This document shows positions 1 through 56,700 of a DNA stretch of 56,700 nt, one piece after another. Location: sequence record PZ544694.1, one strand, 5' to 3'. The notes under the pieces are model-generated. The model had not been told where the DNA came from and did not search any database. It saw nothing but the letters and a program-made list of their open reading frames with translations. The stretch's first letter is position 1; the number at the start of each line of letters is the position of its first letter. The stretch comes from a phage. The position numbers were made by a program, and so were the translations under genes.

Positions 1-276
1 ATGAGCCGTCCATGCGATGAAACTCTCGCAGTATTAAAACAGCGATATGTTGAAGCGAGCCGAGCATATCACGATTTACAAATCGGGGTGTCTGGCCGAG
101 TGTTTGTCGACCAAAATAGCGAACGTGTTGAATTCACCGCAGCTAACCGTCAGAGTCTACTTGCGTATCTTACCGGGCTACAACGTCAGATTTGTCAGTT
201 AGCCCCGAACGACCCGATCTGTAATTGCGGTGTCGGCTTCGGGTCAATTTCCGCACCACTAGGGGCGTTATTCTAA
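1..276 (+). CDS. head-tail joining protein, lambda gpW-like
   Basis: 91 aa; segment HDLQIGVSGRVFVDQNSERVEFTAANRQSL aligns with lambda gpW ([29 protein letters not shown]); next to portal and terminase ORFs. Confidence 0.6.
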   Translation: MSRPCDETLAVLKQRYVEASRAYHDLQIGVSGRVFVDQNSERVEFTAANRQSLLAYLTGLQRQICQLAPNDPICNCGVGFGSISAPLGALF

Positions 277-1401
277 ATGAAATCAATCAAGGAACTTGTC
301 GCGAGAAGTGCGAACAATCCCCCGGAGGTTAAAGCACAAGGCGGTTATGAGGGTGCTCAGCGAAACTCGCGAGAAATGTATCGCTGGACGCCCGCAATAG
401 TCTCTCCGGATCAGGAATTAGACGGCGGACAAAAAGAATTAGCCGATGCCCGGGTTCAAAACGTTATCCAGAATGACGGTTTTGCGTCCGGTGCCGTATC
501 GATACATCGAGATAATATCGTCGGCTCTCAATACATGCTAAACGCTAAGCCGAATTTGTCCGCGCTAGGACTAAAAGGAGCTGACGCCGAAGCATGGGAG
601 GAGGAGTTTCAAGACGTCGTAGAGTCGAAATTCAACGTGGCTGCGGACTCAACGGAAAACTGGTTTGATGTCACACGACGCAATTCTTTTACCGGCTTGG
701 TTCGCCTCGCGGTGGCCCAAGCACTGATTTCCGGTGAAGTATTGGCATCGGCAGAATGGTCAAGAACCGCAGGTCGTCCTTTCAATACGGCCATTCAAAT
801 GATTAGCCCGCATCGACTGAGCAACCCGAATAACTCGGCCAACACGAAAAACATTCGAGGCGGTGTTCATGTCGATGCGTTCGGACGACCAATCGGGTAC
901 TACATTCAAAACAGTTTCCCGGGAGAGAGTTTAATCAACGGTGAGAATCAAATGTGGCGATATGTTCCATCACGCAAACCGTGGGGACGTCGACAGGTTA
1001 TTCACATCATGGAGCAAATTCTCCCGCACCAAAATCGCGGTATCTCAGACATGGTTGCAGCATTGAAGACCATTAGAATGACTAAGAACTTTCAGGAGAT
1101 AACGCTACAAAACGCGGTAATCAATGCCTCGTATGCAGCCGCAATTGAGTCGGAGCTACCACCGGAAGCCGTTTACGCTCAGTTAGGTTTAGGGCAACGT
1201 CCGTTCGGCGAGATTATCCATGAGATGATGACGAACGCAGCATCGTACTACGCGACTGCTAAAAACATGGAAATAGACGGCGCCAAGATCCCGCATTTAA
1301 TGCCCGGCACTAAGTTGAACTTAAAACCGATGGGGACTCCCGGCGGGATCGGCACGGACTTTGAGGAGTCGTTACTACGCCACATCGCAGCATCGTTATA
1401 A
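277..1401 (+). CDS. portal protein, lambda gpB family (N-terminal ~70 percent only)
   Basis: 374 aa colinear with lambda gpB: SIHRDNIVGS, MISPHRLSNPNN, INASYAAAIESEL, AKIPHLMPG, FEESLLRHIAASL; ends with TAA where homologs continue. Confidence 0.85.
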   Translation: MKSIKELVARSANNPPEVKAQGGYEGAQRNSREMYRWTPAIVSPDQELDGGQKELADARVQNVIQNDGFASGAVSIHRDNIVGSQYMLNAKPNLSALGLKGADAEAWEEEFQDVVESKFNVAADSTENWFDVTRRNSFTGLVRLAVAQALISGEVLASAEWSRTAGRPFNTAIQMISPHRLSNPNNSANTKNIRGGVHVDAFGRPIGYYIQNSFPGESLINGENQMWRYVPSRKPWGRRQVIHIMEQILPHQNRGISDMVAALKTIRMTKNFQEITLQNAVINASYAAAIESELPPEAVYAQLGLGQRPFGEIIHEMMTNAASYYATAKNMEIDGAKIPHLMPGTKLNLKPMGTPGGIGTDFEESLLRHIAASL

Positions 1402-3468
1402 ATGGCTAAATACAAAAATCTCTTTGAGATCGCGGTCAAGATGTCGGATAACTTACGACCCCCGGAAAGGTTGACCGTTTCTAATGCAGCATCTCAATAT
1501 CGATATGTAAATTCTCCCGGGTCGTATGTAGGCCCGTGGTTGAATACAACAACGCCGTATATGGTCGAACCAATGGACGTATTAACTTCGCGCAATCACA
1601 GCAAGATGGCGTTTGTAGGCCCGGCACAGTCAGGTAAAACCGACGCGATTATCATTAATGGCGTGTCATACTCAATCAAAGTCTCACCGATGGATACAAT
1701 GGTATTCTGTCCGACAATGGCAGCCGCCCGAGACTTTTCTATGCGACGTATTGATCGTCTTCACCGACACAGCCCGCTAATCGGCGAGCAATTGTTGAAA
1801 GGTAGAGACACCGACAATAAATTCGATAAACAATACATTACAGGTATGATGTTAACTATCACATACCCTACCGTGACCGAATTGGCCGGACGACCGGTTC
1901 CAAGAATATTGATGACCGACTTTGACCGTATGGACGACGATATCGGCGGTGATGGTAATCCATTTGACTTGGCAACACAGCGTACAACAACCTTTGGTTC
2001 GTTTGCTATGACTATGGCCGAATCGTCCCCGTCGAGAGAGATTCTTGACCCGCACTGGATAGCTAAGTCACCGCATGAGGCTCCGCCGTGTACCGGTATT
2101 ATTGCGCTTTACAACCGTGGGGATAGACGACGTTGGCAATGGCCGTGTCCTCACTGTGACGAATATTTCGAGGGTAAATTCGAGCATCTAACGTGGGACA
2201 ACGGAAAACAGCTATCTAACCGAGAGAAAGCAGAAACCGTACAAATGGTATGCCCGGAATGTGGTTGTTTGATCCACCCCGACGAACGCTTTGAAATGAA
2301 TTTATTCGGAGTGTGGGTTCCGGAGGGTTGTAAAGTTGATAAGAGCGGGAGACTTACGGGCAAAGCCCCTCATACCGACTTCATTTCTTACTGGCTCCGC
2401 GGTACGGCAGCCGCCTTTACGACATGGCAAAAACTGGTAAACATCTACCTCGATGCCCTTGACGAATATCAACGGACGTACTCAGAAGAAGCCTTGAAGA
2501 AATTCTGGAATAACAACATGGGTGAGCCGTATCAGCCTAAGTCGTTAGAATCAGTCCGCGCACCGGAAGCACTGAAAAGCCGGTCATCAGATTACCCGCT
2601 AGGCATGGTTCCGAATGACGTTCGATTCCTCGTAGCAACGATAGACGTTCAATTGAATAGCTTCGTAGTACAGGTGTTCGGTATTTCCCCGGGTTCACCG
2701 TATGACACTCATGTTATAGACCGGTTCTTCATCAACAAGTCGGAGCGTAAGGACGAAGACGGCGACGCAATGATCTTACAGCCGGCGACATACGAAGAAG
2801 ACTGGAAACTTATCGAAAAACAGGTAATAGATAAAGAGTATCCGTTGTCAGACGGTAGCGGTAGAATGATGTCAATTAAGATGACCGGTTGTGACTCCGG
2901 GGGTAAATCTGGCGTAACCGGCATGGCATACGCGTTCTATCGATATTTGAAGACAAAGAATAAACATGCTCGCTTCATCTTATTGAAAGGTGGCACACGA
3001 GTAACAGACCCGAGAACCCGTATTAGCTATCCGGACTCTAACCGGAAAAACGATAAGAATGCAGCTAGAGGAGAAATCCCGGTATTATTCTTAAACTCGA
3101 ACTTGTTGAAAGACGCATTAAACGGACGACTAGATTGTATTGAGCCTCACAAGGGCTATTATAATATGACTAGGGAATTACCGGACGAATTTTTCTCGGA
3201 GCTATGCGCCGAAACGAGAACCGCGAAAGGTTGGGAGAATTTAGCGCAAGCCCGAAACGAAGCATGGGACTTAAGCTACTACTGTTTGGGCCTTTGTACG
3301 TCTCCGGAGTTATTACGAGTAGAGTCGATAAATTGGGACAACCCCCCAACGTGGGCGGAGGAATGGGATAATAATACGATGGTCAGGGAACCCGAGGAAG
3401 AAAAACCATTCGCCTTTCAACCTCGACCGATGTTAGACTTTAGCCGTTTAGGTGAACTATTAGGATAG
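1402..3468 (+). CDS. terminase large subunit (GpA family)
   Basis: 688 aa; Walker A-like GPAQSGKTD; CPHC/CPEC Cys pairs; FTTW, VATIDVQ, MTGCDSGG and NEAWDLSYY blocks colinear with lambda gpA. Confidence 0.85.
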   Translation: MAKYKNLFEIAVKMSDNLRPPERLTVSNAASQYRYVNSPGSYVGPWLNTTTPYMVEPMDVLTSRNHSKMAFVGPAQSGKTDAIIINGVSYSIKVSPMDTMVFCPTMAAARDFSMRRIDRLHRHSPLIGEQLLKGRDTDNKFDKQYITGMMLTITYPTVTELAGRPVPRILMTDFDRMDDDIGGDGNPFDLATQRTTTFGSFAMTMAESSPSREILDPHWIAKSPHEAPPCTGIIALYNRGDRRRWQWPCPHCDEYFEGKFEHLTWDNGKQLSNREKAETVQMVCPECGCLIHPDERFEMNLFGVWVPEGCKVDKSGRLTGKAPHTDFISYWLRGTAAAFTTWQKLVNIYLDALDEYQRTYSEEALKKFWNNNMGEPYQPKSLESVRAPEALKSRSSDYPLGMVPNDVRFLVATIDVQLNSFVVQVFGISPGSPYDTHVIDRFFINKSERKDEDGDAMILQPATYEEDWKLIEKQVIDKEYPLSDGSGRMMSIKMTGCDSGGKSGVTGMAYAFYRYLKTKNKHARFILLKGGTRVTDPRTRISYPDSNRKNDKNAARGEIPVLFLNSNLLKDALNGRLDCIEPHKGYYNMTRELPDEFFSELCAETRTAKGWENLAQARNEAWDLSYYCLGLCTSPELLRVESINWDNPPTWAEEWDNNTMVREPEEEKPFAFQPRPMLDFSRLGELLG

Positions 3469-4053
3469 ATGGCAAAGGCACCGGTAACAACAAGACGTCG
3501 TAGCAATCAGCTAGACCGTGAATCCGAGTCGATGATCTTCGACGGGGTTAACATTACTCAGATCGCAAAGATATTTAACATGGAGCGTAGAGACGTTACG
3601 CCCAAGATCCGAGAAGTTCCTCCTTGCGGGGAACGAGGCGGGTATCCGATTTACAAATTAAATGAAGTGGCGCCATACCTAGTAAAGCCCCTGTATGATG
3701 TCGAAACCTACATTAAGCGAATGCACCCCAACGAGCTTCCTAAAATGCTCTCTAAAGAGTTCTGGAACGGAATGAAAGCTAAGCAGGACTACGAGTTGAG
3801 AGAGGGTGAGCTATGGCCTACCGACCAAGTAGAAGCGCTAATGTCGGAGTCTTTTAAACACTTACGCATGTCATTACTCTTAGTAACGGACTCACTGGAA
3901 CGTGAATCCACCCTCACCGATCATCAAAGAACCCGCATCACGGAAATGATAGACGGCGCGCTAAATGAGATGGCGCAAACACTCGTTGAGGCATTCGGAG
4001 ACCGGGCTAAGACGGAAGTCAAAGAGAGTACCGTAGGTGGCAAGAATGGCTAA
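3469..4053 (+). CDS. terminase small subunit (Nu1-like, HTH DNA-binding)
   Basis: 194 aa; N-terminal HTH-like IFDGVNITQIAKIFNMERRDV; C-terminal region resembles lambda Nu1; last 8 nt (ATGGCTAA) identical to first 8 nt of the terminase large ORF. Confidence 0.55.
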   Translation: MAKAPVTTRRRSNQLDRESESMIFDGVNITQIAKIFNMERRDVTPKIREVPPCGERGGYPIYKLNEVAPYLVKPLYDVETYIKRMHPNELPKMLSKEFWNGMKAKQDYELREGELWPTDQVEALMSESFKHLRMSLLLVTDSLERESTLTDHQRTRITEMIDGALNEMAQTLVEAFGDRAKTEVKESTVGGKNG

Positions 4054-5577
4054 ATGCGAAAGAAATTCTCGAAACGTACGGTTGGGAAGACTAAAGTTAA
4101 CCTACTTGAAGAAATCAGGAAAGGTAGAAAACTTGTTGAAAGACAACGGGAAGACTTACACGAGTATCAAGTTGAAGCCCGACAACTGGCGCATGACATT
4201 CCATTCTGCGGATTATTCCTCGAAATGGGTATAGGCAAAACCGTAATAACCGGAACGCTGATCGCCGACTTACTTGATAACTTTGAAGTAGATAGAGTTC
4301 TCATTATAGGCCCTCGTAGGGTGGCTAAAGTAACATGGCCGGACGAATTCATGGAGTGGGGTCATCTATGTGGGTATAAAGTAACGCCGGCAGTCGGAAC
4401 ACCCAAGGAAAGACTAGCGGTACTAAATAGCAATAGTCCTATCGTATCCATAAACCGAGAGAATGTAAGCTGGCTAGTAAACTATTACAAAGGCAAGTGG
4501 CCGTTCGATATGGTGGTCATAGACGAGTCGAGTTCCTTTAAGTCTCACAAATCTAAGCGGTTTAAGGACTTAACTAAAGTCAGACCGAGGATAAAACGAC
4601 TAATCGAGTTGACGGCCACCCCAAATGGCGAGGGATTTACTTCGTTCTTTTCTCAAATATATTTACTTGATTACGGTAAACGGTTCGGCCGTAGCTTCAA
4701 TAAGTTTAGGGATAAATACTTCGAGTACAACCCGTATAACCACAGCATCAAGCCGAGAGAAGATACGGAGATGCGTATCTTAGAAAAGATAAAAGATATA
4801 TGCGTAGTTATGCGAGCAGAAGACTATCTCGATCGAGTACCGTATGAGCCAAAGGTGATCCCGGTAAAACTCAATAAGAAGATCACCAAGGAGTATTTCG
4901 ACTTCCAAAAGAATTTAGTCATGATGATACCCGAAGCGGAAAACGTCATAGTGGAAGCGCAATCGGCAGCGATACTCGCATTGAAACTGCTACAAATGTG
5001 CTCCGGCGTTATTTACAACACGTACTATGACGGGATAGATGAGAACGAGGAGCCGATAAGGAAGACCGACATCTATGATATCCACGAGGAGAAACTAGAC
5101 GCGCTCGAAGTGTTTCTGGAAGAAGCAAAGGAAGCCGGAAAGAATGTTTTCCTTGGGTATCACTTTCGGTCATCACGAGAAAGAATATTAGCCCGATTCC
5201 CGGATATCGTCGAGATGGATAAAGACGGAAATAACATAAAACAATGGAACGCGGGGCGAATAAAAGTTTACATGGCACACCCTCAAAGTGCGGGGCACGG
5301 CTTGAATTTACAGCGGGGCGGACATACAATTCTTTTCTATGACATTCCGTATTCGTTCGAGAACTATGACCAATTTATCGGCCGGCTCGATAGGCAAGGT
5401 CAAAAGCACCGAGTAACAGTACACCACTTAGTTGCGGTCGGAACAAATGAAGATGGCCGAACAGTCCAACTAGCCGACCGCCACGTTTATAACAATCTGA
5501 GACGTAAGGAAGAAAACCAAGATTGGGCCTTGAAGACCTTACGTGATCTCAGAAAAGCGATGAAAAAGGAAGTTTAG
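4054..5577 (+). CDS. SNF2-family (DEAD/DEAH-like) helicase
   Basis: 507 aa; motifs GIGKT (I), VVIDESS (II), LTATP (III), QSAGHGLNLQ and QFIGRLDRQGQ (VI). Confidence 0.85.
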   Translation: MRKKFSKRTVGKTKVNLLEEIRKGRKLVERQREDLHEYQVEARQLAHDIPFCGLFLEMGIGKTVITGTLIADLLDNFEVDRVLIIGPRRVAKVTWPDEFMEWGHLCGYKVTPAVGTPKERLAVLNSNSPIVSINRENVSWLVNYYKGKWPFDMVVIDESSSFKSHKSKRFKDLTKVRPRIKRLIELTATPNGEGFTSFFSQIYLLDYGKRFGRSFNKFRDKYFEYNPYNHSIKPREDTEMRILEKIKDICVVMRAEDYLDRVPYEPKVIPVKLNKKITKEYFDFQKNLVMMIPEAENVIVEAQSAAILALKLLQMCSGVIYNTYYDGIDENEEPIRKTDIYDIHEEKLDALEVFLEEAKEAGKNVFLGYHFRSSRERILARFPDIVEMDKDGNNIKQWNAGRIKVYMAHPQSAGHGLNLQRGGHTILFYDIPYSFENYDQFIGRLDRQGQKHRVTVHHLVAVGTNEDGRTVQLADRHVYNNLRRKEENQDWALKTLRDLRKAMKKEV

Positions 5578-5865
5578 ATGACTGTTAGAGAGAGCAAAGT
5601 CGAATCGGATATCCGAAAATACGCTTTGGCCCGAGGCTGGTGGGTTTCTAAATTTACTAGCCCCGGTAAACGAGGCGTACCAGACCGGATATTCATTAAA
5701 AACAGTTTTGTAGTTTTTATCGAAATCAAACGCCCCGGAGAGAAGCCGTCGAAGCAACAAGAATTACGCATGGCCGAGATGAAGCGCTACGGGGCTTTAG
5801 TATATTGGGTGGATAATTTAAACGATGCGAAAGAAATTCTCGAAACGTACGGTTGGGAAGACTAA
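5578..5865 (+). CDS. VRR-NUC domain nuclease (PD-(D/E)xK fold)
   Basis: 95 aa; GVPDRIFI ... VFIEIKRPGEKPSKQQ pattern typical of VRR-NUC; last 41 nt identical to first 41 nt of the SNF2 ORF. Confidence 0.6.
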   Translation: MTVRESKVESDIRKYALARGWWVSKFTSPGKRGVPDRIFIKNSFVVFIEIKRPGEKPSKQQELRMAEMKRYGALVYWVDNLNDAKEILETYGWED

Positions 5866-7899
5866 GTGGAATCGAAAAGAACGTTAATTTTTGACTATGA
5901 AACATATAGCGAACTAGACATAAAGAAAGTAGGCGGTCACAAGTATGCACAGCACCCGTCTACTGAAATTCTAATGGTAGCGTGGAAGTTTACTGACTCG
6001 GACGAAATCGGTTTTTGGGACAACACAATGCCCGAAGAAGATTTAGACGAGTTAAAGGGATATTTGCGCGACGATAACATCATAAAACGGGCATTCAACG
6101 CGCAGTTTGAGCGGTTGATCACTAAACACGTCCTAGGTATCGACACACCGTATGACGTCTGGCGTTGTACGATGGTGGCTGCGTACCACCGAGGTTTTAC
6201 CGGCGGGTTAGACATGGTTGGTAAGGCTCTAGGTTTTAAAGGGGATAAAGCAAAAGACGCAGCAGGTAAACGCCTAATTCAGAAATTTTGTAAACCAAGA
6301 AAGCCAACTAAACTCGACAAAAGTACAAGACACGATGCGGAATCACACCCGGAAGAATGGGAAGCATTCGGAGCCTATTGCCGACAAGACGTGATAGCCG
6401 AAGAAAATATCGACCGCCGTCTGAGTGACATCAAGTATGACATGATCGAATTTGAGTGGGAAGTTTACGCGTTAGACCAGAAAATTAATGACCGCGGAAT
6501 AAATATCGATAACGACTTCATCGAAGCAGCAATAAAGATGGCCGAGACACGCAAGCCACAGATTATCGATGAAATGCGAGAACTTACAGGGCTAGCCAAT
6601 CCCGGGTCTCAGAAACAACTATTAGCGTGGCTACAACAAGAGGGATACCCGTTCAACGACCTATTAGCTGACACCGTGAAAAAAGTCATAAACGAGTATC
6701 CGGACAATGGGATCACAGAAAAAGCGTGTCGAGTTCTTAAACTTCGTCGTAAATCTAACAAAACCTCTCTAAAGAAATACAACAAAATGTTAGATATTGA
6801 AAACGACGACGGTAGGGTACGCGGAACAATTCAATGCTACGGGGGTTCTCGAACCGGACGATTCGCCGGGCGGGGCTTACAAACTCACAACTTCGTAAGA
6901 ACACCGAAGATACTTGAAGACGTCGAAGCTACGGAAATCGCTAAAAAGCTAGTTCTCGACCAAGACATGTGGGCTTTAAACGTTTTTGCTGGCGAACCCA
7001 TGGATATGTTGCCGGGGCTACTACGATCCGCACTAATCCCAACGGTAGGTCGTCGCTTCGTTGTAGCGGACTTGTCATCAATTGAATCGGTAGTAATAGG
7101 TTGGCTTACCGGCTGTAAGTGGTTCCTAGATACCTTGCGGGCTAAAAAAGACTTATATCGCGCATTCGCCTCAGCATGGCTAAAAATTCCTTACGAAGAC
7201 ACCCTCCCATTCCGAGGAAAGGCAAAACCGGCCACACTAGGTTGCGGATATCGACTAGGCGGTGGCGAACTTATTGACGGTAAGAAAACCGGACTTTGGG
7301 GTTACGGTGAAAACATGGGAGTCATGCTAACACAAGAGGAGGCTCACGCTTCGGTAGACGCATTCCGAGAGTTGTGCCCTGAGATTGTTGACGGTTGGTA
7401 TAAACTTGAAGATTGCGTAAAAACCACCATTAAGACGCACAAGACAACCCGATGGAGATCGTTAGTATTCGGGTTTAAAAAACCGTTCTTATGGATTAAG
7501 TTGCCATCGGGGCGGAAACTTTATTACTACCGCCCACGCTTAGTAACAAACACCTACAAGAACCGCAGAGGTGAGACGTACACTCGTCAAGAAATAATGT
7601 ACGAGGGTAAAAAAGATCAAGGCGGTTGGGGTGTTCAAACCACGCACGGCGGGAAATTGATTGAGAATATCGTTCAAGCCATAGCAAGAGATGTCCTAGT
7701 AAACGGCATGTTTAATGCGGAAGAAATAGGTTTCGATATCGTATTCCACGTTCACGATGAAATCATAACGGAAGTCGACGAAGATGACCTGTTAGGGCTA
7801 GACGACCTCATTGATTGTATGGCAGCACCGATATCGTGGGCGCCGGGACTACCATTAGGAGCAGCAGGGTGGGAGGGGTATTTTTACCGTAAAGATTAA
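5866..7899 (+). CDS. DNA polymerase, family A, with 3'-5' exonuclease domain
   Basis: 677 aa, GTG start; exo motif LIFDYETYSELD; pol motif A-like VVADLSSIESVV; motif B-like KAKPATLGCGYRLG; motif C FHVHDEIITE. Confidence 0.8.
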   Translation: MESKRTLIFDYETYSELDIKKVGGHKYAQHPSTEILMVAWKFTDSDEIGFWDNTMPEEDLDELKGYLRDDNIIKRAFNAQFERLITKHVLGIDTPYDVWRCTMVAAYHRGFTGGLDMVGKALGFKGDKAKDAAGKRLIQKFCKPRKPTKLDKSTRHDAESHPEEWEAFGAYCRQDVIAEENIDRRLSDIKYDMIEFEWEVYALDQKINDRGINIDNDFIEAAIKMAETRKPQIIDEMRELTGLANPGSQKQLLAWLQQEGYPFNDLLADTVKKVINEYPDNGITEKACRVLKLRRKSNKTSLKKYNKMLDIENDDGRVRGTIQCYGGSRTGRFAGRGLQTHNFVRTPKILEDVEATEIAKKLVLDQDMWALNVFAGEPMDMLPGLLRSALIPTVGRRFVVADLSSIESVVIGWLTGCKWFLDTLRAKKDLYRAFASAWLKIPYEDTLPFRGKAKPATLGCGYRLGGGELIDGKKTGLWGYGENMGVMLTQEEAHASVDAFRELCPEIVDGWYKLEDCVKTTIKTHKTTRWRSLVFGFKKPFLWIKLPSGRKLYYYRPRLVTNTYKNRRGETYTRQEIMYEGKKDQGGWGVQTTHGGKLIENIVQAIARDVLVNGMFNAEEIGFDIVFHVHDEIITEVDEDDLLGLDDLIDCMAAPISWAPGLPLGAAGWEGYFYRKD

Positions 7900-8505
7900 A
7901 TGGCAAAACTTAAACCAGTAAAACGTATTAAACATGAAGGTAAAACAGTAGCGGTAATCTATGAAGACGGCCACGTCCGAATTGATAATGTTCGCTTGTC
8001 ATACCCACACTTAGCAACACCACAAGAGGGTGATGACGGCAGTAAAAAGTTCGGTGCTACATTCTTATTAGACAAGGACATTCATTCTGAAACAGCCGAA
8101 GTCTTAAAAGATTTAGCAGCTAAAACAGCGAAAAACGCGAAAGTGAAAGTCCCGTCATCGAAGTATTTCATCAAAGATGGTGACGAAGAATTTTCGGACA
8201 AACCTGAATGTGAAAATATGTTTGTTATCTCCGCCCGGGAAAAGAAACGTCCTGTTTGTCGAGATGCTGACAAAGAAGAAATCGACGTAGACGATATTGA
8301 AGAAATCCTATACGGCGGTTGCTATGTTAGTGCCTTGATTGGTCTTTGGGTTCAAGATAACAAATACGGAAAACGAGTTAACGCTAACCTCCGTTCAATC
8401 AAATTCATCAAAGACGGCGAGCCGTTCGGTGCTGAAAGAATCGATGATTCCGAAGCGTGGGACGACGAAGACGAATGGGGTGAAGGCGAAGAAGACGACA
8501 TCTAA
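7900..8505 (+). CDS. putative ssDNA-binding protein (DUF2815-like) with acidic C-terminal tail
   Basis: 201 aa; N-terminal RLSYPHLATPQ...FGATFLL resembles DUF2815 phage proteins; C-terminal DDSEAWDDEDEWGEGEEDDI; next to DNA polymerase. Confidence 0.4.
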   Translation: MAKLKPVKRIKHEGKTVAVIYEDGHVRIDNVRLSYPHLATPQEGDDGSKKFGATFLLDKDIHSETAEVLKDLAAKTAKNAKVKVPSSKYFIKDGDEEFSDKPECENMFVISAREKKRPVCRDADKEEIDVDDIEEILYGGCYVSALIGLWVQDNKYGKRVNANLRSIKFIKDGEPFGAERIDDSEAWDDEDEWGEGEEDDI

Positions 8506-14624: not shown

Positions 14625-14766
14625 TATGGAAAATTGCCGTAAAGCCATGTGTTGCGTCCTCAGCGTGTTTTGCCCGCTAGGTAAGGCCGATGTATTACCT
14701 ACGATGAGTTATGCCCGTGTGGTTCGATTGAGGGCGGAAGACGGCGCTTTGTTTGTTCCGACTTAA

Positions 14767-49710: not shown

Positions 49711-49869
49711 ATGGTACAGGCCGAAGTAGACATTGTTATCAAGCGAGTTAATAATCAAATAGCAACGGAAGCAATATTAATGCAACAATGTATCGCCTCC
49801 GCCGTATGGGGGAAAGAGGGCGCTAAGATTTTCAACAAGACGATAAAGGGGCTACAAGGTGGCAAATAG
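49711..49869 (+). CDS. small ORF in tape-measure/chaperone intergenic (gpT-like) region
   Basis: 52 aa; first 19 nt identical to last 19 nt of ORF 49870-49965. Confidence 0.25.
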   Translation: MVQAEVDIVIKRVNNQIATEAILMQQCIASAVWGKEGAKIFNKTIKGLQGGK

Positions 49870-49965
49870 ATGCGGAGAAAATCAGGGAGGGGGTTAGCCT
49901 CCTCCTGTCCCACGGTCATACGTTCGCACGACACTACCCGATCGGCATGGTACAGGCCGAAGTAG
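49870..49965 (+). CDS. small ORF in gpT-like region
   Basis: 31 aa; read from frame 1. Confidence 0.2.
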   Translation: MRRKSGRGLASSCPTVIRSHDTTRSAWYRPK

Positions 49966-50418
49966 ATGTCATTATCCGCATTCGAACCAACGAAAAAAAG
50001 CGTAACTATCAATGATTCTATTTCCATCGAAGTTCGAGGCTTATCACTAAACGATATCTCTCGATTAATCCAGTTACACGCCCAAGATTTAGACGGCGTA
50101 TTCGACTTATATTCACAAGGAGTTGGGGCCGGGAAAGAATTAGATAGTTTAGTATTCGCTAACTACTTGCTCACCCTGATATCCTCCGCACCGGGGCTAA
50201 TTAGTAGCATTATCGCGGTTTCTGCGGACGAACCTACCATGGCCGATAAAGCCTCCCTCCTACCGATAACGGCGCAATACGATTTAATGATGGCCGTATT
50301 TGAGTTAACTTTCTCGGACATTGCTACGCTAAAAAAGATCATGGCGAACGTAATGGAGAAAGTGGGAGAAGCGAACGGGAAAACAGTTCCGGCCAAGAAA
50401 GCCAAGAAAAAGGGTTAA
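49966..50418 (+). CDS. tail assembly chaperone (gpG-like)
   Basis: 150 aa acidic protein between major tail and tape measure; ends KKAKKKG with AAGAAAAAGGG stretch. Confidence 0.45.
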   Translation: MSLSAFEPTKKSVTINDSISIEVRGLSLNDISRLIQLHAQDLDGVFDLYSQGVGAGKELDSLVFANYLLTLISSAPGLISSIIAVSADEPTMADKASLLPITAQYDLMMAVFELTFSDIATLKKIMANVMEKVGEANGKTVPAKKAKKKG

Positions 50419-51606
50419 ATGGCACAACCATGTACAAGCAGCAACGACCAGAATTACGTCGTAGGGCGTGGTCGACTATTCTTCGACAAGTTCGTCGACG
50501 GTTGTAACAACTCCGAGCATGGCGAAATGTATTTCGGTAATACCCCGGAGTTATCACTATCTTCTGACACAGAAACGTTAGACCATTATTCGTCTGATTA
50601 TGGTATGCGTGAAAAAGACCTAACCGTGATGCTAGAGCATTCTCGTTCTGGTTCATTCACAACCGACCATATCTCCGCGGACAACCTAGCGTTGTTCTTC
50701 CTAGGGGACAAAACGCATGTTACTCAGACTCAGGTGACAGGCAACAAAGAAGTATTCGAAAACGTGGCATTAGGTCGTCACTACCAACTCGGCACAACGG
50801 ATATCCTACCGATGGGCGTTCGTAACATCGAGAATCTGTTAGTTTACGTGGCGGACGGTGATACAACCATCAACCTAGGCGATGGCGATGTGTCAACTAT
50901 CGACGGTGTAACTAAAGTAAATTTTGCCGGCCAGATCGACTACGACCTAGAGTTAGGACGTATCTATATCGAACCTACCGCTACTGAAATTAAAAACGGT
51001 CAGCAGTTAGTAGTCCAGTATGACATCGAGGCGCAGGCTCGCGAAATCATCATTGCCCGTAACCGCATGATCTACGGCTCACTGCGATTCTTGTCAGCTA
51101 ACCCGGTAGGTAGCGCGAAAGATTTCTACTGGCCCAAAGTCATGTTACAACCTGACGGAGACTATGCACTTAAAGGTGACGACTGGCAACAAATTGGGTT
51201 TACCTTTAGCGTTCTTCGCAAAAACCGCAAAGTGGAGCAGGTTTACATCGAGTCAGCGATGGCAAGAGCATCTACGCCCCCAAAGCCTGATCCGGAGCCG
51301 GAATACCGTCTAACTCTTAGCGTTACTCCGACCTCCGGTACTGAGGGTGATACTTTAGTAGCTAAGGTAAAAGCTACGAAAGACGGCGCTCCGAGAAAAA
51401 CAAAAGTGGTCTTTGCCTTTAGCTCCGACGAGGTGGAACTGGCCGATAGTCACCCTGACGGTGTAGAGACAGACGGGGTTACGGGAGAGGCCACTGTGAA
51501 TCTTACGGTAGGCCCCGTGTCCGGTTCCGCGACAAAAGTTACGATAACAGTAACCGATAGCGACGGAGGAAGTGCGACGGAGGAAGTTACCGTCAACCCA
51601 AAGTAA
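50419..51606 (+). CDS. major tail protein with C-terminal Ig-like domain
   Basis: 395 aa; C-terminal ~100 aa beta-rich Ig-like (TLSVTPTSGTEGDTLVAKVKAT...VTITVTDSDGG); position as in lambda gpV. Confidence 0.5.
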   Translation: MAQPCTSSNDQNYVVGRGRLFFDKFVDGCNNSEHGEMYFGNTPELSLSSDTETLDHYSSDYGMREKDLTVMLEHSRSGSFTTDHISADNLALFFLGDKTHVTQTQVTGNKEVFENVALGRHYQLGTTDILPMGVRNIENLLVYVADGDTTINLGDGDVSTIDGVTKVNFAGQIDYDLELGRIYIEPTATEIKNGQQLVVQYDIEAQAREIIIARNRMIYGSLRFLSANPVGSAKDFYWPKVMLQPDGDYALKGDDWQQIGFTFSVLRKNRKVEQVYIESAMARASTPPKPDPEPEYRLTLSVTPTSGTEGDTLVAKVKATKDGAPRKTKVVFAFSSDEVELADSHPDGVETDGVTGEATVNLTVGPVSGSATKVTITVTDSDGGSATEEVTVNPK

Positions 51607-52119
51607 ATGGCAAGTAAAAAATTAGAAATACTAAAAGCACTAACGTCTCTACTAGAAACAGTATCATCGGACGGTAACGAAAATATACGGCCGTATAGTT
51701 TGGCCGGAAGTGTCTATCGCGGTAGAACCGTTTTTGGAGATAACGACCCCGTACCTTTGGTGAGTATACTTGAAGCGAAAGGGGCTAATTACGCTGATTA
51801 CGCTGATGACTTCAAGATCATAAACAAAACCGGCTGGAACCTATTAATACAAGGGTGGGTCGACCCGATAGACCCTAAACAAGAAACCGACCCGGTATAC
51901 GAGCTAGTACAAGACGTAATATGTGCGTTACAAAAGATTAATGCGGTACGGCCGGAGACCGGTAAACCGCTATACCCGGAGTATTATCGACTAGGTGGGC
52001 GGATTTTTGAATTAACTTTAGGTGACGAGGTTGTCAGACCAAGCGAAGTTGAGGTATCATCTAAGGCGTTTTTCTACCTCCCGATAGTAATCGGCATCAC
52101 TAATCAAGCAAGAGGGTAA
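51607..52119 (+). CDS. putative tail terminator (gpU-like)
   Basis: 170 aa; position between gpZ-like and major tail genes; weak N-terminal similarity to lambda U. Confidence 0.35.
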   Translation: MASKKLEILKALTSLLETVSSDGNENIRPYSLAGSVYRGRTVFGDNDPVPLVSILEAKGANYADYADDFKIINKTGWNLLIQGWVDPIDPKQETDPVYELVQDVICALQKINAVRPETGKPLYPEYYRLGGRIFELTLGDEVVRPSEVEVSSKAFFYLPIVIGITNQARG

Positions 52120-52737
52120 ATGGCGATATCGGTGGAGACGGTGGGCGTTAATGCGTTAAAACTGTATTTCGACGGTATGCCGAAGATGACGGCGCGGTCT
52201 ATGCGTTTAGCGATAAATACGGTAGTCCGCCGGTCAGGCATGAAAGCGCTACGGGACGGAATGTTGGCCGAGATAAGTTTCCCTAGGGGATACCTAAAAG
52301 GTGACAGACTGAAAGTGGCTCGATACGCCTCAGACAATAAACTAGAAGCGACAATACTCGCGAGGAAAAGGGCCACCAGCCTAGCGCGTTTTGCCACCTC
52401 CGGAACGATGGGTAAGTCCGGGGTAACAGTTAAAGTTCGTCGGGGGAGAACAACCTTTCTTAAGAAAGCGTTTCTTGTTAAACTGAAAGCAGGTGCGAGT
52501 ATGTCAGAAGACAATTACAACACCGGACTAGCAGTTCGTCTCTCTCCCGGGGAGAAACTTAACAACAAAGCAAGCGCCCACAAAGCGTGGCTTGTTCCCG
52601 GGCGAGTGGCCCTCCTTTACGCCCCATCGGTAAATCAGGTTATGGAAACTACGGCCGGAAAAGTGTCACCTCAGATCGCGAAGTTAGTTGAAGGCGAGTT
52701 CTTCCGGCAGTTTGAGAGATTAAGCAATGGCAAGTAA
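52120..52737 (+). CDS. tail completion protein (lambda gpZ-like)
   Basis: 205 aa; MAISVETVGVNALKLYF...RSMRLAINTVVRRSGMKAL aligns with lambda Z N-terminus (MAIKGLEQAVENLSRIS...AAMAINRVASSAISQSA). Confidence 0.55.
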   Translation: MAISVETVGVNALKLYFDGMPKMTARSMRLAINTVVRRSGMKALRDGMLAEISFPRGYLKGDRLKVARYASDNKLEATILARKRATSLARFATSGTMGKSGVTVKVRRGRTTFLKKAFLVKLKAGASMSEDNYNTGLAVRLSPGEKLNNKASAHKAWLVPGRVALLYAPSVNQVMETTAGKVSPQIAKLVEGEFFRQFERLSNGK

Positions 52738-53091
52738 ATGACCGCTTGGGCTAGACAAAAATATAAAATGAGAAAGGCGGTTCATTCCGCCTTTCGCCTA
52801 TCTGCTATCTTGATAAGAGGGAATCAGGAGCCGGTCGCCCTGTATGTCCGATATCACAATAAGATAGCAATCATGGGCGACCTCATGGAAGCGGGCTATT
52901 CAGAAGTTATTGACGGAGTAGACCGAATGATCTTCGATAGAGACGAACTGAAAGAAAAAGGTGTCGTACTAGCATACGGAAATATCATTCAATTGACAGA
53001 CCCGGGATTCGAAGATATCCGAGTGTCGTTGGTAGCGCAAGAGCCGTACAACGGCCCGGTCGAATCAAAGTGGCAAGTTAAAAGGATATAA
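52738..53091 (+). CDS. putative head-tail adaptor (FII-like position)
   Basis: 117 aa; position after major capsid in transcription order; beta-rich. Confidence 0.3.
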   Translation: MTAWARQKYKMRKAVHSAFRLSAILIRGNQEPVALYVRYHNKIAIMGDLMEAGYSEVIDGVDRMIFDRDELKEKGVVLAYGNIIQLTDPGFEDIRVSLVAQEPYNGPVESKWQVKRI

Positions 53092-53439
53092 ATGTCAGAG
53101 ACCAAAGAAACTGTAGTACAACGCGTGGCGCTTCAAACGATCATCTTACGTCGTAACGGCCAGCAATTCGTTCCGGCCATCGGCGATGTAGTTGAACTCA
53201 CAACCTCCGAGTTAGAACAGATTAACGCAACTAACCCTAGCGCTATCGGCCACATTAAGATTAATCAATCTGTGGCAAAGGCCCTCGTCGAAAAGACGGT
53301 TGATATGGAAGCCATCAAACGAGAAGCACTAGAACAAGCCCGTGCAGAACTCGCAGCCGAACAAGCTAAATCCGCAGACACGGCAAAGAGCAATAAGAAA
53401 GGAGCCAAAGCGAAGACCGACGCTGACGACGATCTATAA
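53092..53439 (+). CDS. hypothetical head-module protein (FI-like position)
   Basis: 115 aa; helical Ala/Glu/Lys-rich C-terminus. Confidence 0.3.
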   Translation: MSETKETVVQRVALQTIILRRNGQQFVPAIGDVVELTTSELEQINATNPSAIGHIKINQSVAKALVEKTVDMEAIKREALEQARAELAAEQAKSADTAKSNKKGAKAKTDADDDL

Positions 53440-54507
53440 ATGGCTGGACAGTATTCAACCGTACAACTTTTACCGGTATTGCGTAAAATCGAATCGCTAC
53501 CGTCGTTTTTCTTAGGGTTCTTCCCGAACACGATCAACTTTGATACCGACGAAATCGCGATCGATAAAGTAAGCGACAACTACAAACGCGTAGCACCGTT
53601 CGTCGCTCCTAACGTACAAGGCGTGGTGATCAAAGAGAAAGGTTTCCACACCGTAGCGTTTAAACCGGCGTACCTGAAACCTAAACATGCTATCGACCCA
53701 TCGATGGTGTTTCCTCGTCGCCCGGGCGAAAACCTACTAACTGGTTCCTTGACGCCAGACCAAAAATTCAAGATGGCCGTCGCAGAAACGCTACGCAAAC
53801 ATAAGTCAATGATCGAGAATACGTTCGAGGTTATGGCAGCGTCAGCGGTGATCTATGGCTACGTTGATGTTGAAGGGCCGGACTATCCGAAAACCCGTGT
53901 AGACTTCCGACGTGACCCGTCGCTGACCATCACAACCGACTGGACGGCTCCCGGCATCACATCGGAGCAGACCTTTAAAGACTTACGCTTAGGCAAGCAA
54001 CTGGTTAATGACAAGTCTGCTAGCGGTACGGTTGTTCGTGACTACATCTTCGGCCAAGACGCTTGGGATTTATTCGTCAAGATCAACAAAGACGAATTGT
54101 TCGGCGATCACGGCTTGATGGATACTCGTTTCAAAGGTTCTGAAACATTGATTACGCGTATCTCAGATGGCCTTGAGGGCATTGAATACATGGGCCGTAT
54201 CGCGGGTGTAAATGGCGCGGGTGCAATGGATATCTACGTCAACACGCAGAAATTCGTTAACCAAGACGGCAAAGAAGAATACCTAGTACCACAAGGCGGT
54301 ATCGTAGGTGTATCTCGTGCTATCGAGGGCTACCGTTGCTTCGGTGCAATCCACGACAAGAAAGCGGGCTTCCGTTCATTAGAAATGTTCCCTAAAATGT
54401 GGGAAGAAGAAGACCCAAGTGTTGATTATGTGATGACGCAATCGGCTCCGTTAATGGTTCCACGCGATCCTAACACTTCATTCTTACTGATGGTATCCAC
54501 CAAGTAA
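53440..54507 (+). CDS. major capsid protein (lambda gpE family)
   Basis: 355 aa; YLKPKHAIDP vs lambda YVKPKHEVNP; QSAPLMVPRDPNTSFLLMV vs QSAPLMLLADPDEFVSVQLA. Confidence 0.85.
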   Translation: MAGQYSTVQLLPVLRKIESLPSFFLGFFPNTINFDTDEIAIDKVSDNYKRVAPFVAPNVQGVVIKEKGFHTVAFKPAYLKPKHAIDPSMVFPRRPGENLLTGSLTPDQKFKMAVAETLRKHKSMIENTFEVMAASAVIYGYVDVEGPDYPKTRVDFRRDPSLTITTDWTAPGITSEQTFKDLRLGKQLVNDKSASGTVVRDYIFGQDAWDLFVKINKDELFGDHGLMDTRFKGSETLITRISDGLEGIEYMGRIAGVNGAGAMDIYVNTQKFVNQDGKEEYLVPQGGIVGVSRAIEGYRCFGAIHDKKAGFRSLEMFPKMWEEEDPSVDYVMTQSAPLMVPRDPNTSFLLMVSTK

Positions 54508-54903
54508 ATGTTAGCAGGTTCTCGCGACCTTAACGCATGGGAACCAACTCAGATTTTCGCCGGCGAGTCACCGATCCATACGGACAACGGCGTGGCGTCA
54601 AGCGATATCGATATGTACCAAGTGGTATATCGTAAAGAAGACGGCACTATCGCAGCATTTGACGACACGGTTTATCCGGGTACGGGTTCCGGCGGTGACG
54701 AGGGTGAGGGGACTGCAACGGCGATATTACCAGTCGGGATCTCGGCACAAGCAACGAAAAGCGGTCAGACAGTACAGTTCTACACCGGCGGTACGTTTAA
54801 TATCGATGCGATCACATGGCCGAAAGCCATTGATGACCTAGTGAAAGCCAAATCGCTTTTCGAGTTAGGTCGCTCAACAATCATTATCAAAAAACTGTAT
54901 TAA
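54508..54903 (+). CDS. head decoration protein (lambda gpD-like)
   Basis: 131 aa; TATAILPVGISAQATKSGQTVQFYTGGTF...WPKA...FELGRSTIII colinear with lambda D. Confidence 0.65.
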   Translation: MLAGSRDLNAWEPTQIFAGESPIHTDNGVASSDIDMYQVVYRKEDGTIAAFDDTVYPGTGSGGDEGEGTATAILPVGISAQATKSGQTVQFYTGGTFNIDAITWPKAIDDLVKAKSLFELGRSTIIIKKLY

Positions 54904-56181
54904 ATGACGCAAGGCACTTATCAAGCTGCTGCCGTACAAGCGGTACAAGCTATTAATCTACGCCCGGCGTTTCTGGACGAACGTTCAGTCGGTTCTATGG
55001 GGAGTAACTTACAGTTGCTAGCTAACGTAGAGGCCGACATGACTGACGAAACTTGGTCAACAATGCTAAACAACGTGTGTATGACGTATGGGGTGTCTAA
55101 CAGCGCACCAACTAACAAACCATACGGATTCTCTAACGGAACCGCTTTCATTCCGGTACACGGCTCTCTAATTAACCGCTTCGGCGGTTCTTGGGGATTC
55201 GTTACAGGATATAGCTATATTCGTAGAGCACACGCAATGGCCTTGAATGATCCGGACGTCGAGAGAATCGTCTATGACGTTAATTCGGGTGGAGGCGAGG
55301 CAGCCGGTTGTATGGAACTATCGGACGAGATTTTCAGTCGTCGCGGTGAAAAACCTACACTGGCCGTCATCAACTCAAGTTGCTATTCTGCTGCTTACGC
55401 GATCGCAAGTGCGTGTGACGCGATAAGTATCACGCCCTCGGGTGGCGCGGGTTCAATTGGGGCGTTGATTATTCACGCTGATATGTCTAAAATGTTGTCT
55501 GACGTAGGAATTAAAGTATCTGTGATACGCGCCGGCGACAGAAAGGCAGAAACCAACCCTTTCGAGGAACTTAGCGATCAAGCGAGAGCAGAGCTACAAT
55601 CAGGCGTCAACGCTTGTAGAAAAACGTTTGTAGCAACCGTAGCAAGAAATCGCGGTTTGTCGGAAAAGCTAGTATTCGACACCGAAGCGAAAACATACGA
55701 CGCGAATGATGCTAAAGACTTAGGTCTAGTTGACCGCGTTGAATCGCCAGAAATGGCATTACACAACTTCATTAACGGAACAGAGAGCGAAACTGATATG
55801 GCCGTAAAAAACACAAACGCGGAGCAACCGACAATCAATGCGTCCGAAGAACAAGCTAAAGGTGCGAAAGCAGAACAAGCGCGTATCAAGGGCATTCTTG
55901 GTTGTGATGAAGCAAAAGGGCGCGAATCGTTAGCACAACACATCGCGTTCAACACCTCAATGAGCGAAGAAGATGCTAAGGCAATGCTTAACGCTTCTCC
56001 GGTTGAGAAAGCGGAAGAACCAAAGCAAGAAGAAAAGCCGAACGCTTTTAAGAAAGCAATGGACGAAGGCGAACAGCCGGGCATCAAAGCCGAGCCACAG
56101 GACACGGATAAGCCCTTAGCAACGGACGAGAATAACTCGTTATTAGACGACCTTTCAGGTCTTGGCTATTTCGGTAACTAA
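54904..56181 (+). CDS. head maturation protease (S49 / SppA-like, lambda gpC-like) with scaffold-like C-terminal region
   Basis: 425 aa; S49 core GFVTGYSYIRRAH...VINSSCYSAAYAIASACD...GSIGALIIH; C-terminal ~110 aa Ala/Glu/Lys-rich, Nu3-like. Confidence 0.8.
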   Translation: MTQGTYQAAAVQAVQAINLRPAFLDERSVGSMGSNLQLLANVEADMTDETWSTMLNNVCMTYGVSNSAPTNKPYGFSNGTAFIPVHGSLINRFGGSWGFVTGYSYIRRAHAMALNDPDVERIVYDVNSGGGEAAGCMELSDEIFSRRGEKPTLAVINSSCYSAAYAIASACDAISITPSGGAGSIGALIIHADMSKMLSDVGIKVSVIRAGDRKAETNPFEELSDQARAELQSGVNACRKTFVATVARNRGLSEKLVFDTEAKTYDANDAKDLGLVDRVESPEMALHNFINGTESETDMAVKNTNAEQPTINASEEQAKGAKAEQARIKGILGCDEAKGRESLAQHIAFNTSMSEEDAKAMLNASPVEKAEEPKQEEKPNAFKKAMDEGEQPGIKAEPQDTDKPLATDENNSLLDDLSGLGYFGN

Positions 56182-56700
56182 ATGAACCTTTCATACGAAC
56201 AGTTTAGCCGAGACTACACGAAGACTAACTATTCTTCCGCGAGAGCCTCAATGGGGGAAACATGGAAATTCATGCAGTCTCGCAAAAAGATCATTGCTGA
56301 TGCTTTCGCTACAAACATTTATGCGTTGTGGTTAGAGGAGATGATAAACAAAAACGAAATCCCGTTGCCACGAGGAAAAACGAGCGACTGGTTTTACGAA
56401 CCGTTAGTGAAAGACTGTTTAATTCGTTGCGACTGGATAGGTGCAGCCCGCGGTCAAATCGACGAGAAGAAAGAGACCGAAGCAGCTATCATGAGAATTA
56501 ACAGTGGTCTGAGCACTCGTGAGAAAGAAATCGCTCGACTCGGCGAAGACTGGAGAGAGATTTTTAGGCAGTTAGAACGAGAAAAACGAATAAAAGATAA
56601 ATACGGGCTTGTTTTCTCCGGAGATGTGAGTAATATATCCGCTAACGAGAAAACAAACTCGGAAGATGACGAAGAAACTAACAGTGGGGATTCGGAATGA
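56182..56700 (+). CDS. portal protein, lambda gpB family (C-terminal ~30 percent only)
   Basis: 172 aa; NLSYEQFSRDY...YSSARAS...WLEEMI...CDWIGAARGQID...INSGLSTREKE colinear with the lambda gpB C-terminal third; continues ORF 277-1401 with no residues missing; ends with TGA at the last window base. Confidence 0.8.
   Translation: MNLSYEQFSRDYTKTNYSSARASMGETWKFMQSRKKIIADAFATNIYALWLEEMINKNEIPLPRGKTSDWFYEPLVKDCLIRCDWIGAARGQIDEKKETEAAIMRINSGLSTREKEIARLGEDWREIFRQLEREKRIKDKYGLVFSGDVSNISANEKTNSEDDEETNSGDSE

What the first reader, a model, noticed from the sequence alone, without database searches (positions are those of the whole stretch)
1..56700. Whole window is a gap-free tiling of same-frame ORFs, each stop immediately followed by a start codon
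Every + strand gene starts at a coordinate equal to 1 mod 3 (checked for 1, 277, 1402, 3469, 4054, 5578, 5866, 7900, 8506, 9835, 10939, 15007, 22888, 26845, 31423, 38647, 45379, 49966, 53440, 56182). Each in-frame stop I inspected is followed directly by ATG, GTG or TTG, including inside stretches that look non-coding (TGA 13705-13707 then GTG; TAA 13834-13836 then ATG; TAG 10468-10470 then GTG; TAA 18892-18894 then TTG; TAA 21253-21255 then TTG). The window starts exactly on an ATG and ends exactly on a TGA. Natural genomes do not have this property; it is expected if annotated ORFs were extracted in sense orientation and abutted, or if the sequence was designed. Strand and intergenic inferences are affected.
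Basis: seen in the sequence. Interest (0 to 1): 0.85.

Follow-up and report, generated by a model that had tools for sequence, protein, structure and literature searches.

The report
Concatenated predicted genes of phage E21
The window is not a natural stretch of genome: it is 85 computer-predicted genes of Escherichia phage E21, cut out, all turned to the same strand and glued end to end, so the gap-free same-frame tiling comes from data preparation, not biology.

Summary
Frame +1 has only 85 stop codons, against 559-1406 in the other five frames. All 84 internal stops are followed directly by ATG, GTG or TTG, against 2-7% in the other frames. The window is 56,700 nt (0 mod 3), starts on ATG and ends on TGA.

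The source is Escherichia phage E21 (MN604053 / NC_052983, 58,536 bp, Casjensviridae, Lavrentievavirus). 83 of the 85 blocks are exact substrings of that record: 29 on the + strand and 54 reverse-complemented. The other two are also minus-strand. They are the halves of the portal gene, which the record origin cuts. One half carries an added TAA (window 1399-1401) and the other an added ATG (56182-56184); neither triplet exists in the phage.

Relative to E21, 2,123 nt of intergenic DNA in 52 gaps are missing. 281 nt of natural gene overlaps appear twice. Only 1 of 84 junctions is contiguous in nature.

The gene calls are not the public annotation. 21 blocks are extra, and most of these are short ORFs with no coding signature, lying over the Chi-type cos site and promoter regions.

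Verdict: a preprocessing artefact, not a real feature. A functional designed genome is effectively excluded.

The parts
1..56700 (+). Artificial concatenation of 85 ORF blocks, all in frame +1, each running from a start codon to its first in-frame stop.
1..10317 (+). Blocks 1-10. These are minus-strand genes of E21 (record 1-10438), reverse-complemented one by one, so their order is the reverse of the transcription order (adaptor, portal N-terminal part, TerL, TerS, helicase, VRR-NUC, DNA polymerase and so on).
277..1401 (+). Block 2: N-terminal 374 codons of the lambda-family portal gene (record 1122..1, minus strand) followed by a non-native TAA.
   Evidence: 100% over 1122 nt; the last 3 nt do not align. 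(PF05136, profile positions 2-320 of 354).
1399..1401 (+). Added stop codon TAA, absent from the phage genome.
   Evidence: The natural sequence reads ...GCATCGTTA|AACCTTTCA... across the record origin.
10318..14178 (+). Blocks 11-18: plus-strand ORFs of E21 (record 10459-14391), including the primase. The junction 10470|10471 is the only one of 84 that is also contiguous in the natural genome.
13615..14766 (+). Blocks 15-22: eight ORFs of 29-71 aa called over the 1.4-kb stretch of E21 (record 13751-15160) that is unannotated in the E21 records and in most relatives. Their substitutions show no third-position bias, so they are probably not genes.
14286..14297 (+). GGTGCGCAGAGC, the 12-nt cohesive-end (cos) sequence of Chi-like phages. 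It sits inside block 19 (14179-14331), which is likely spurious.
   Evidence: PMC4342425; PMC9022528.
14179..18894 (+). Blocks 19-30: minus-strand ORFs (record 14465-19498), reverse-complemented.
18895..18999 (+). Block 31: a lone 34-aa plus-strand ORF (record 19657-19761) between minus-strand genes. A terminator-like hairpin on the opposite strand (record 19759-19740) lies inside it, so it is probably spurious.
19000..21255 (+). Blocks 32-38: minus-strand ORFs (record 19875-22221), reverse-complemented.
21256..30147 (+). Blocks 39-58: plus-strand ORFs (record 22366-31515), including RdgC and the Dam-like methyltransferase.
30148..56700 (+). Blocks 59-85: minus-strand ORFs (record 31575-58536), reverse-complemented. 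They cover lysis, tail and head genes, in reverse of the transcription order.
4054..4094 (+). First copy of a 41-nt natural gene overlap (record 5545-5585). The second copy is at 5825-5865. This is the largest of 30 overlaps (281 nt in all) that appear twice because each ORF was cut out whole.
29894..29969 (+). Tandem duplicate (2 x 38 nt: 29894-29931 and 29932-29969) created by abutting two plus-strand ORFs that overlap by 38 nt in nature (record 31288-31325). The same effect gives 2 x 28 nt at 13971-14026.
56182..56184 (+). Added start codon ATG, absent from the phage genome.
56182..56700 (+). Block 85: the added ATG followed by the C-terminal 171 codons and natural TGA of the portal gene (record 58536..58021, minus strand).
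   Evidence: query positions 4-519 align at 100%. (PF05136, profile positions 322-353 of 354).

Best explanation
The window was produced by sequence preprocessing. An ab initio gene finder was run on the GenBank/RefSeq record of Escherichia phage E21, treated as a linear molecule. Each of the 85 predicted ORFs was extracted from start codon to stop codon in its own sense orientation. The ORFs were then joined head to tail in record order, with nothing between them. The two partial ORFs at the record edges are the halves of the portal gene, which the arbitrary record origin cuts. They were made to look complete by appending TAA to one and prepending ATG to the other. Every block is a multiple of 3 nt long, so all blocks fall in frame +1 and every stop is followed by the next block's start. 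The tiling therefore has no biological mechanism. Shown: the mapping, the missing, duplicated and added bases, and the difference from the public annotation. Inferred: which gene finder was used (it behaves like PHANOTATE), and why block 1 and block 2 are swapped.
For:: the only matches at 99.9-100% identity are MN604053 and NC_052983, and they come in 24-28 separate pieces per 25 kb; 83 of 85 blocks are exact substrings of the record, in ascending record coordinate; with the two portal halves, 29 blocks are plus-strand and 56 are minus-strand; block 2 is record 1122..1 plus TAA; block 85 is ATG plus record 58536..58021; read across the record origin, the natural sequence is one uninterrupted 545-aa ORF; that ORF covers the Pfam lambda-portal model at positions 2-353 of 354, and the two blocks cover 2-320 and 322-353; the origin-spanning 300 nt are contiguous, inside an annotated portal gene, in 25 related phages; the window's junction 84|85 is contiguous in none of 28 matching records; 2,123 nt of the genome in 52 gaps are absent, 281 nt in 30 natural overlaps are present twice, 6 nt are non-native, and only 1 of 84 junctions is natural; both copies of every overlap of 7 nt or more were located in the window; between record 9000 and 27000, all 12 best sigma-70-like sites (at least 10 of 12 matches) lie in excised gaps (7 fully, 1 partly) or in the extra small ORFs (4). 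Three identical TTGACA-17-TATATT sites and the three strongest terminator-like hairpins lie in gaps; the shortest block is 90 nt, 96.4% of the genome is tiled, and 21 blocks are absent from GenBank.
Against: The order is not perfectly ascending. Block 1 (record 1128-1403) precedes block 2 (record 1-1122), and no simple coordinate sort explains this. The gene caller could not be identified; the products of blocks 19 and 2 are not in the large gene-position collection. Nothing found argues that the sequence is natural.
Confidence: 0.97

Rival explanations
1. A deliberately designed, refactored or 'decompressed' synthetic phage genome, in which every gene was separated, put on one strand and abutted so that the construct could be built and expressed.
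For: Natural overlaps are resolved by duplication, as in published refactoring projects (my own knowledge: T7.1 and decompressed phiX174). All genes are co-oriented.
Against: The essential portal gene is split into two ORFs about 55 kb apart, with a fake stop and a fake start. All intergenic DNA is gone, including the best promoter-like and terminator-like sites. Natural sequence upstream of the start codon survives at only 1 of 84 junctions. Minus-strand operons are in reverse gene order. About 18 short ORFs with no coding signature are kept as if they were genes. The G/GT-type frameshift arrangement upstream of the tape measure gene is broken up. No scars, restriction sites or linkers are present.
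Confidence: 0.015
2. A natural phage genome with extreme gene packing and translational coupling, where every stop abuts the next start.
For: Phage genes are often tightly packed. The E21 genome itself has 30 overlaps between neighbouring predicted ORFs and one exact stop/start abutment.
Against: The window maps to its 100%-identical natural source only as 85 separate pieces, 56 of them inverted. It contains 6 nt not found in the phage. Among the 28 phage records that match the tested junction region (84|85), none holds that junction contiguously. All genes falling in one frame out of three across 56.7 kb has no natural precedent that I know of.
Confidence: 0.002
3. Concatenation of the deposited GenBank or RefSeq CDS features, rather than of a fresh gene prediction.
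For: 48 of 85 blocks have exactly the coordinates of deposited CDS.
Against: The records hold 64 CDS, not 85. 16 blocks share a stop with a deposited CDS but have a different start. 21 blocks are not annotated at all, including the portal N-terminal part at record 1-1122.
Confidence: 0.01

Closest known systems
Concatenated CDS multi-FASTA (gene-caller output joined into one string), a bioinformatic artefact
   Same: Every unit runs from a start codon to its first in-frame stop. Units are exact substrings of one genome on either strand. No intergenic DNA is present, overlapping bases are duplicated, and the total length is a multiple of 3.
   Different: The partial edge genes were padded with an artificial ATG and TAA, which standard gene-caller output does not do. 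One adjacent pair of blocks is out of coordinate order.
Escherichia phage E21 (Lavrentievavirus E21, Casjensviridae; MN604053 / NC_052983), the natural source
   Same: 100% identity over 56,694 of the window's 56,700 nt. It carries the same Chi-type cos 12-mer.
   Different: The natural genome is 58,536 bp with genes on both strands in seven strand runs. It has 2,123 nt of intergenic DNA that the window lacks, 281 nt of overlaps present once rather than twice, and an intact 545-aa portal gene.
Refactored synthetic phage genomes (T7.1, decompressed phiX174; from my own knowledge, not checked in the paper library)
   Same: Gene overlaps are removed by duplicating the shared bases, so each gene becomes a separate cassette.
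   Different: Refactored genomes keep promoters, ribosome-binding sites, terminators, gene order and all essential genes intact. The window keeps none of these.
PHANOTATE-style tiling gene calls for phages (from my own knowledge)
   Same: Near-complete tiling of the genome (96.4%), a 90-nt minimum ORF, and many 29-60 aa ORFs on either strand that fill otherwise non-coding gaps. GTG or TTG starts are frequent among these extra ORFs (9 of 20, against 3 of the other 65).
   Different: The program could not be run here, so this attribution is an inference. Prodigal also has a 90-nt minimum.

Membership tests
Concatenated-ORF preprocessing artefact | Every unit begins with ATG/GTG/TTG, ends at its first in-frame stop, and abuts the next unit with no spacer. 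| tested here: met
   85 blocks, and 84 of 84 internal stops are followed by a start.
Concatenated-ORF preprocessing artefact | Units are exact copies of ORFs of one natural genome, taken from both strands and all presented in sense. | tested here: met
   83 blocks are exact and 2 are exact apart from padding; 29 are plus-strand and 56 minus-strand.
Concatenated-ORF preprocessing artefact | Intergenic DNA of the source is absent, and overlapping bases are duplicated. | tested here: met
   2,123 nt in 52 gaps are missing, and 281 nt in 30 overlaps are present twice.
Concatenated-ORF preprocessing artefact | Non-native bases occur only where needed to complete a truncated ORF. | tested here: met
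   TAA at 1399-1401 and ATG at 56182-56184, at the two halves of the origin-split portal gene.
Natural contiguous phage genome segment | The sequence is collinear with a natural isolate across gene junctions. | tested here: not met
   only 1 of 84 junctions is natural; the best record matches in 24-28 pieces per 25 kb; the junction is contiguous in 0 of 28 records.
Refactored / designed functional phage genome | All essential genes are intact. | tested here: not met
   the portal is split into a 374-aa and a 172-aa ORF at opposite ends of the window.
Refactored / designed functional phage genome | Promoters, ribosome-binding sites and terminators are retained or replaced by designed parts. | tested here: not met
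   the best promoter-like and terminator-like sites of the natural genome lie in the excised gaps; there are no spacers at all; an SD-like motif is found upstream of 33 of 84 starts in nature and 20 of 84 in the window.
Lavrentievavirus / Chi-like phage (source of the DNA) | Near-identical nucleotide sequence to a classified member. | tested here: met
   100% to Lavrentievavirus E21 and 96-98% to the Proteus phages PM87, Jing313 and P2-71.
Lavrentievavirus / Chi-like phage (source of the DNA) | 12-nt cohesive end 5'-GGTGCGCAGAGC. | tested here: met
   one exact copy at window 14286-14297, with none in 100 shuffles; the same 12-mer forms both ends of the linear Jing313 record. Literature. The physical ends of E21 itself were not determined here.

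The most novel reading that the evidence does not exclude
The window is a deliberately designed all-sense, spacer-free 'recoded layout' of a Chi-like phage, intended for synthesis or expression, rather than a by-product of data handling.
Probability: 0.01. Interest if true: 0.4.

Novelty: not a real feature. Interest (0 to 1): 0.06.

Why it matters
It matters for the scan, not for biology. Any inference drawn from this window about strand, gene order, operon structure, intergenic signals, repeats or frame is compromised. Examples are the 38-nt and 28-nt tandem duplicates and the dispersed 41-nt repeat, which all come from the concatenation.

Other findings from this window should be re-evaluated on the natural E21 genome (MN604053). 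Some features seen in the window are purely artificial: the duplicates at 29894-29969 and 13971-14026, the TAA at 1399-1401, the ATG at 56182-56184, the apparently truncated portal, and the uniform positive GC skew (that this skew comes from the sense orientation of the blocks is my inference).

Real regulatory DNA is either missing or disguised as short ORFs. This includes the promoter-like and terminator-like sites and the cos region.

Tried and rejected
(1) Exact scans of IMG/VR viral contigs for two window junctions found nothing. The control, the natural origin-spanning portal sequence, also found nothing, so these scans are uninformative. They were replaced by BLAST controls in the phage collection.

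(2) I tried to trace the gene calls to the large gene-position collection. Neither the block 19 product nor the block 2 product is on record, so the gene caller remains unidentified.

(3) A paper search for phage E21 returned only an unrelated phage, vB_EcoP_E212. No description of E21 was found.

(4) A Shine-Dalgarno motif count upstream of starts gave 33 of 84 in the natural genome, 20 of 84 in the window and 9% at random positions. The contrast is modest, because the motif test is crude and many extra ORFs have no ribosome-binding site in nature either. I do not rely on it.

(5) tRNA scans of the window and of the natural genome found none, so no tRNA genes were lost in the excised gaps.

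(6) Sorting keys that might explain why block 1 precedes block 2 (left end, right end, 5' end, stop position) were considered. None fits.

(7) The idea that the window concatenates the deposited CDS features was rejected.
Full report
OBSERVATION. A direct count shows that frame +1 of the 56,700-nt window has only 85 stop codons. The other five frames have 559 to 1,406. Each of the 84 internal frame-1 stops is followed directly by ATG, GTG or TTG, and the 85th stop is the last codon of the window. In the other frames only 1.8-7.0% of stops are followed by a start codon. At p = 0.052, 84 of 84 has a probability near 1e-108. The window starts with ATG, ends with TGA and is a multiple of 3 nt long. 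GC skew is positive almost everywhere, which I read as what is expected when every gene is shown in sense.

SOURCE. Megablast of both halves of the window against 50,697 phage records gives 99.9-100% identity only to Escherichia phage E21. This is MN604053.1, identical in sequence to NC_052983.1 (58,536 bp, recorded as circular; Casjensviridae, Lavrentievavirus). The matches come in 24-28 separate pieces per 25 kb. About 30 related Proteus, Salmonella and Providencia phages match at 96-98%.

MAPPING. Exact string matching places 83 of the 85 blocks as perfect substrings of the E21 record. With the two portal halves included, 29 blocks lie on the plus strand and 56 on the minus strand, the latter reverse-complemented. 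Apart from one adjacent pair, the blocks follow ascending record coordinate. As a result the minus-strand operons appear in reverse gene order.

The two non-exact blocks are the most telling. Block 2 (window 277-1401) is record 1122..1 on the minus strand plus three extra bases, TAA. Block 85 (window 56182-56700) is three extra bases, ATG, plus record 58536..58021. In the natural sequence the minus strand reads straight across the record origin (...GCATCGTTA|AACCTTTCA...) as one 545-aa ORF. That ORF matches the Pfam lambda-family portal model PF05136 over positions 2-353 of 354. The two blocks match positions 2-320 and 322-353. In 25 related phages the same 300 nt are contiguous inside an annotated portal gene, at 100% identity in two of them. 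The window's own junction 84|85 is contiguous in none of 28 matching records. So the gene finder saw the record as linear and produced two edge-truncated ORFs. The pipeline then completed them with a fake stop and a fake start. These 6 nt are the only bases in the window that are not phage sequence.

BOOKKEEPING. Of the 58,536 genome bases, 2,123 are absent from the window, in 52 gaps of 1-161 nt. 56,132 are present once. 281 are present twice, in 30 natural overlaps of 1-41 nt. Both copies of each overlap of 7 nt or more were found in the window. Examples are 4054-4094 = 5825-5865 (41 nt), the tandem 29894-29931 = 29932-29969 (38 nt) and 13971-13998 = 13999-14026 (28 nt). Only one of 84 junctions, 10470|10471, is also contiguous in the natural genome. 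Seven natural strand runs are flattened into one.

WHICH GENE CALLS. The blocks are not the deposited annotation. GenBank and RefSeq list 64 CDS. Of the 85 blocks, 48 have identical coordinates, 16 share the stop but differ in the start, and 21 are not annotated. The shortest blocks are exactly 90 nt, and 16 blocks are shorter than 60 aa. Of the 20 extra ORFs other than the portal half, 9 start with GTG or TTG, against 3 of the other 65 blocks.

I compared the blocks with two relatives, Jing313 and PM87. In the annotated blocks 76.5% of 3,060 substitutions fall on codon position 3. In the 20 extra blocks the split is 32/30/38% over 203 substitutions. Only blocks 33 and 35 show a coding pattern, and both correspond to genes annotated in Jing313. 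Several extra ORFs carry in-frame stops or indels in relatives (blocks 21, 22 and 52; block 19 in PM87). About 18 blocks are probably spurious ORFs laid over non-coding DNA by an over-calling, tiling gene finder. The behaviour resembles PHANOTATE, but that is an inference because I could not run it. Look-ups of two block products in the large gene-position collection found nothing.

WHAT THE NON-CODING DNA REALLY IS. The 1.4-kb region at record 13751-15160 corresponds to window blocks 15-22. It is unannotated in the E21 records and in most relatives. The ends of several linear relatives fall inside it. The Jing313 record begins and ends with GGTGCGCAGAGC. This is the 12-base cohesive end determined by primer extension for phage Chi (PMC4342425) and predicted by PhageTerm for Chi-like Proteus phages (PMC9022528). 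The 12-mer occurs once in the window, at 14286-14297 inside block 19, and in none of 100 shuffles. It corresponds to E21 record 14499-14510.

Between record 9000 and 27000, all 12 best sigma-70-like matches (at least 10 of 12) lie outside the deposited CDS. Seven lie fully and one partly in excised gaps, and four lie in the extra small ORFs (blocks 11, 12, 17, 18). Three are identical TTGACA-17-TATATT sites in the gaps 17738-17898, 19499-19656 and 20976-21080. The three strongest terminator-like hairpins also lie in gaps. These are consensus matches, not proof of function. They do show that the window has lost, or has disguised as ORFs, the places where regulation is expected.

EXPLANATION AND RIVALS. 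The best explanation (confidence about 0.97) is a data-preparation artefact: predicted ORFs of E21 were extracted in sense, padded at the record edges and concatenated. Three rivals were considered.

A functional designed or refactored genome is contradicted by several findings. The portal is split. All intergenic signals are lost. The minus-strand operons are in reverse order. Spurious ORFs are retained. The tail-chaperone frameshift arrangement is broken up.

A natural genome with extreme gene packing is refuted by the mapping itself.

Concatenation of the deposited CDS features is refuted.

One detail stays unexplained. Block 1 (record 1128-1403) precedes block 2 (record 1-1122), and no coordinate sort produces this order. 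It is probably a side effect of how the edge-partial gene was handled.

COMPARISON AND VERDICT. The closest known things are a concatenated CDS FASTA (same in every defining respect) and refactored phage genomes such as T7.1 or decompressed phiX174. The refactored genomes share only the duplication of overlaps; this comparison rests on my own knowledge. The underlying DNA is an ordinary, already sequenced Chi-like phage. The finding is a correct and useful quality flag, but it is not a biological feature. Interest is low (0.06) and the novelty rating is 'not a real feature'. All other stage-1 findings from this window should be re-examined on the natural E21 genome.

Noticed in passing
window 277-1401 and 56182-56700 (E21 record 1-1122 and 58021-58536): The public E21 records (MN604053, NC_052983) annotate only the C-terminal 149 aa of the portal protein (58021-58470) and nothing at 1-1125, because the record origin cuts the gene. 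Joined across the origin it is one 545-aa lambda-family portal (PF05136, profile positions 2-353 of 354). It is contiguous and annotated in 25 relatives.
   Followed up: yes
window 14286-14297 (E21 record 14499-14510, minus strand): This is the Chi-type 12-nt cohesive-end sequence GGTGCGCAGAGC, a single copy. It forms both ends of the linear Jing313 record. E21 is deposited as circular with an arbitrary origin, and its true virion ends are probably here. In the window the site is hidden inside block 19, a 50-aa ORF that is probably spurious.
   Followed up: yes
window 49711-50418 (blocks 74-76; E21 record 51318-52021, minus strand): This looks like a lambda G/GT-type tail-chaperone arrangement. 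Block 76 is a Pre_tape_measure protein (PF23789). The -1 frame is open from record 51683 to 51318, overlapping the last 112 nt of block 76 and containing block 74. Candidate slippery heptamers are A AAA AAG (record 51656-51650) and A AAG GGT (record 51578-51572, just before the stop). Block 74 is probably the tail of a frameshift product, and block 75 (31 aa) is probably spurious.
   Followed up: partly
E21 record 17791-17819, 19553-19581 and 21030-21058 (minus strand); all absent from the window: Three identical near-consensus promoter-like sites, TTGACA-17 nt-TATATT, lie in three intergenic gaps of the leftward early-gene cluster. A 12-bp-stem terminator-like hairpin at 17852-17881 lies just upstream of one of them. 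They may be repeated early promoters of the phage.
   Followed up: partly
window 17512-18153 (block 29), 26845-27585 (block 51), 29467-29931 (block 56): The phage carries a DNA-modification gene set. Block 29 is a Mom-family protein (PF25680, E = 5e-35). Block 51 is a Dam-like N6-adenine methyltransferase (PF05869, E = 9e-30), which RefSeq names 'phosphoadenosine phosphosulfate reductase'. Block 56 is a protein that RefSeq calls nucleoside 2-deoxyribosyltransferase, and here it gives only a weak DUF7768 match. The RefSeq and Pfam names disagree for block 51.
   Followed up: partly
window 1-1401 (blocks 1 and 2): Block order is ascending in E21 record coordinate except that block 1 (record 1128-1403) comes before block 2 (record 1-1122). 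No coordinate sort explains this. It is probably a quirk of how the edge-partial ORF was handled.
   Followed up: partly
phage collection records PV596763 (Pseudomonas phage E21), OR506460 (Enterococcus phage AS-M1_NWU), PV593182 (Staphylococcus phage SVV09-A): Records labelled as Pseudomonas, Enterococcus and Staphylococcus phages are 94-97% identical to this Proteus/Escherichia Lavrentievavirus over the regions searched. Such host labels across phyla are implausible for near-identical genomes and suggest contamination or mislabelling in the public records.
   Followed up: no
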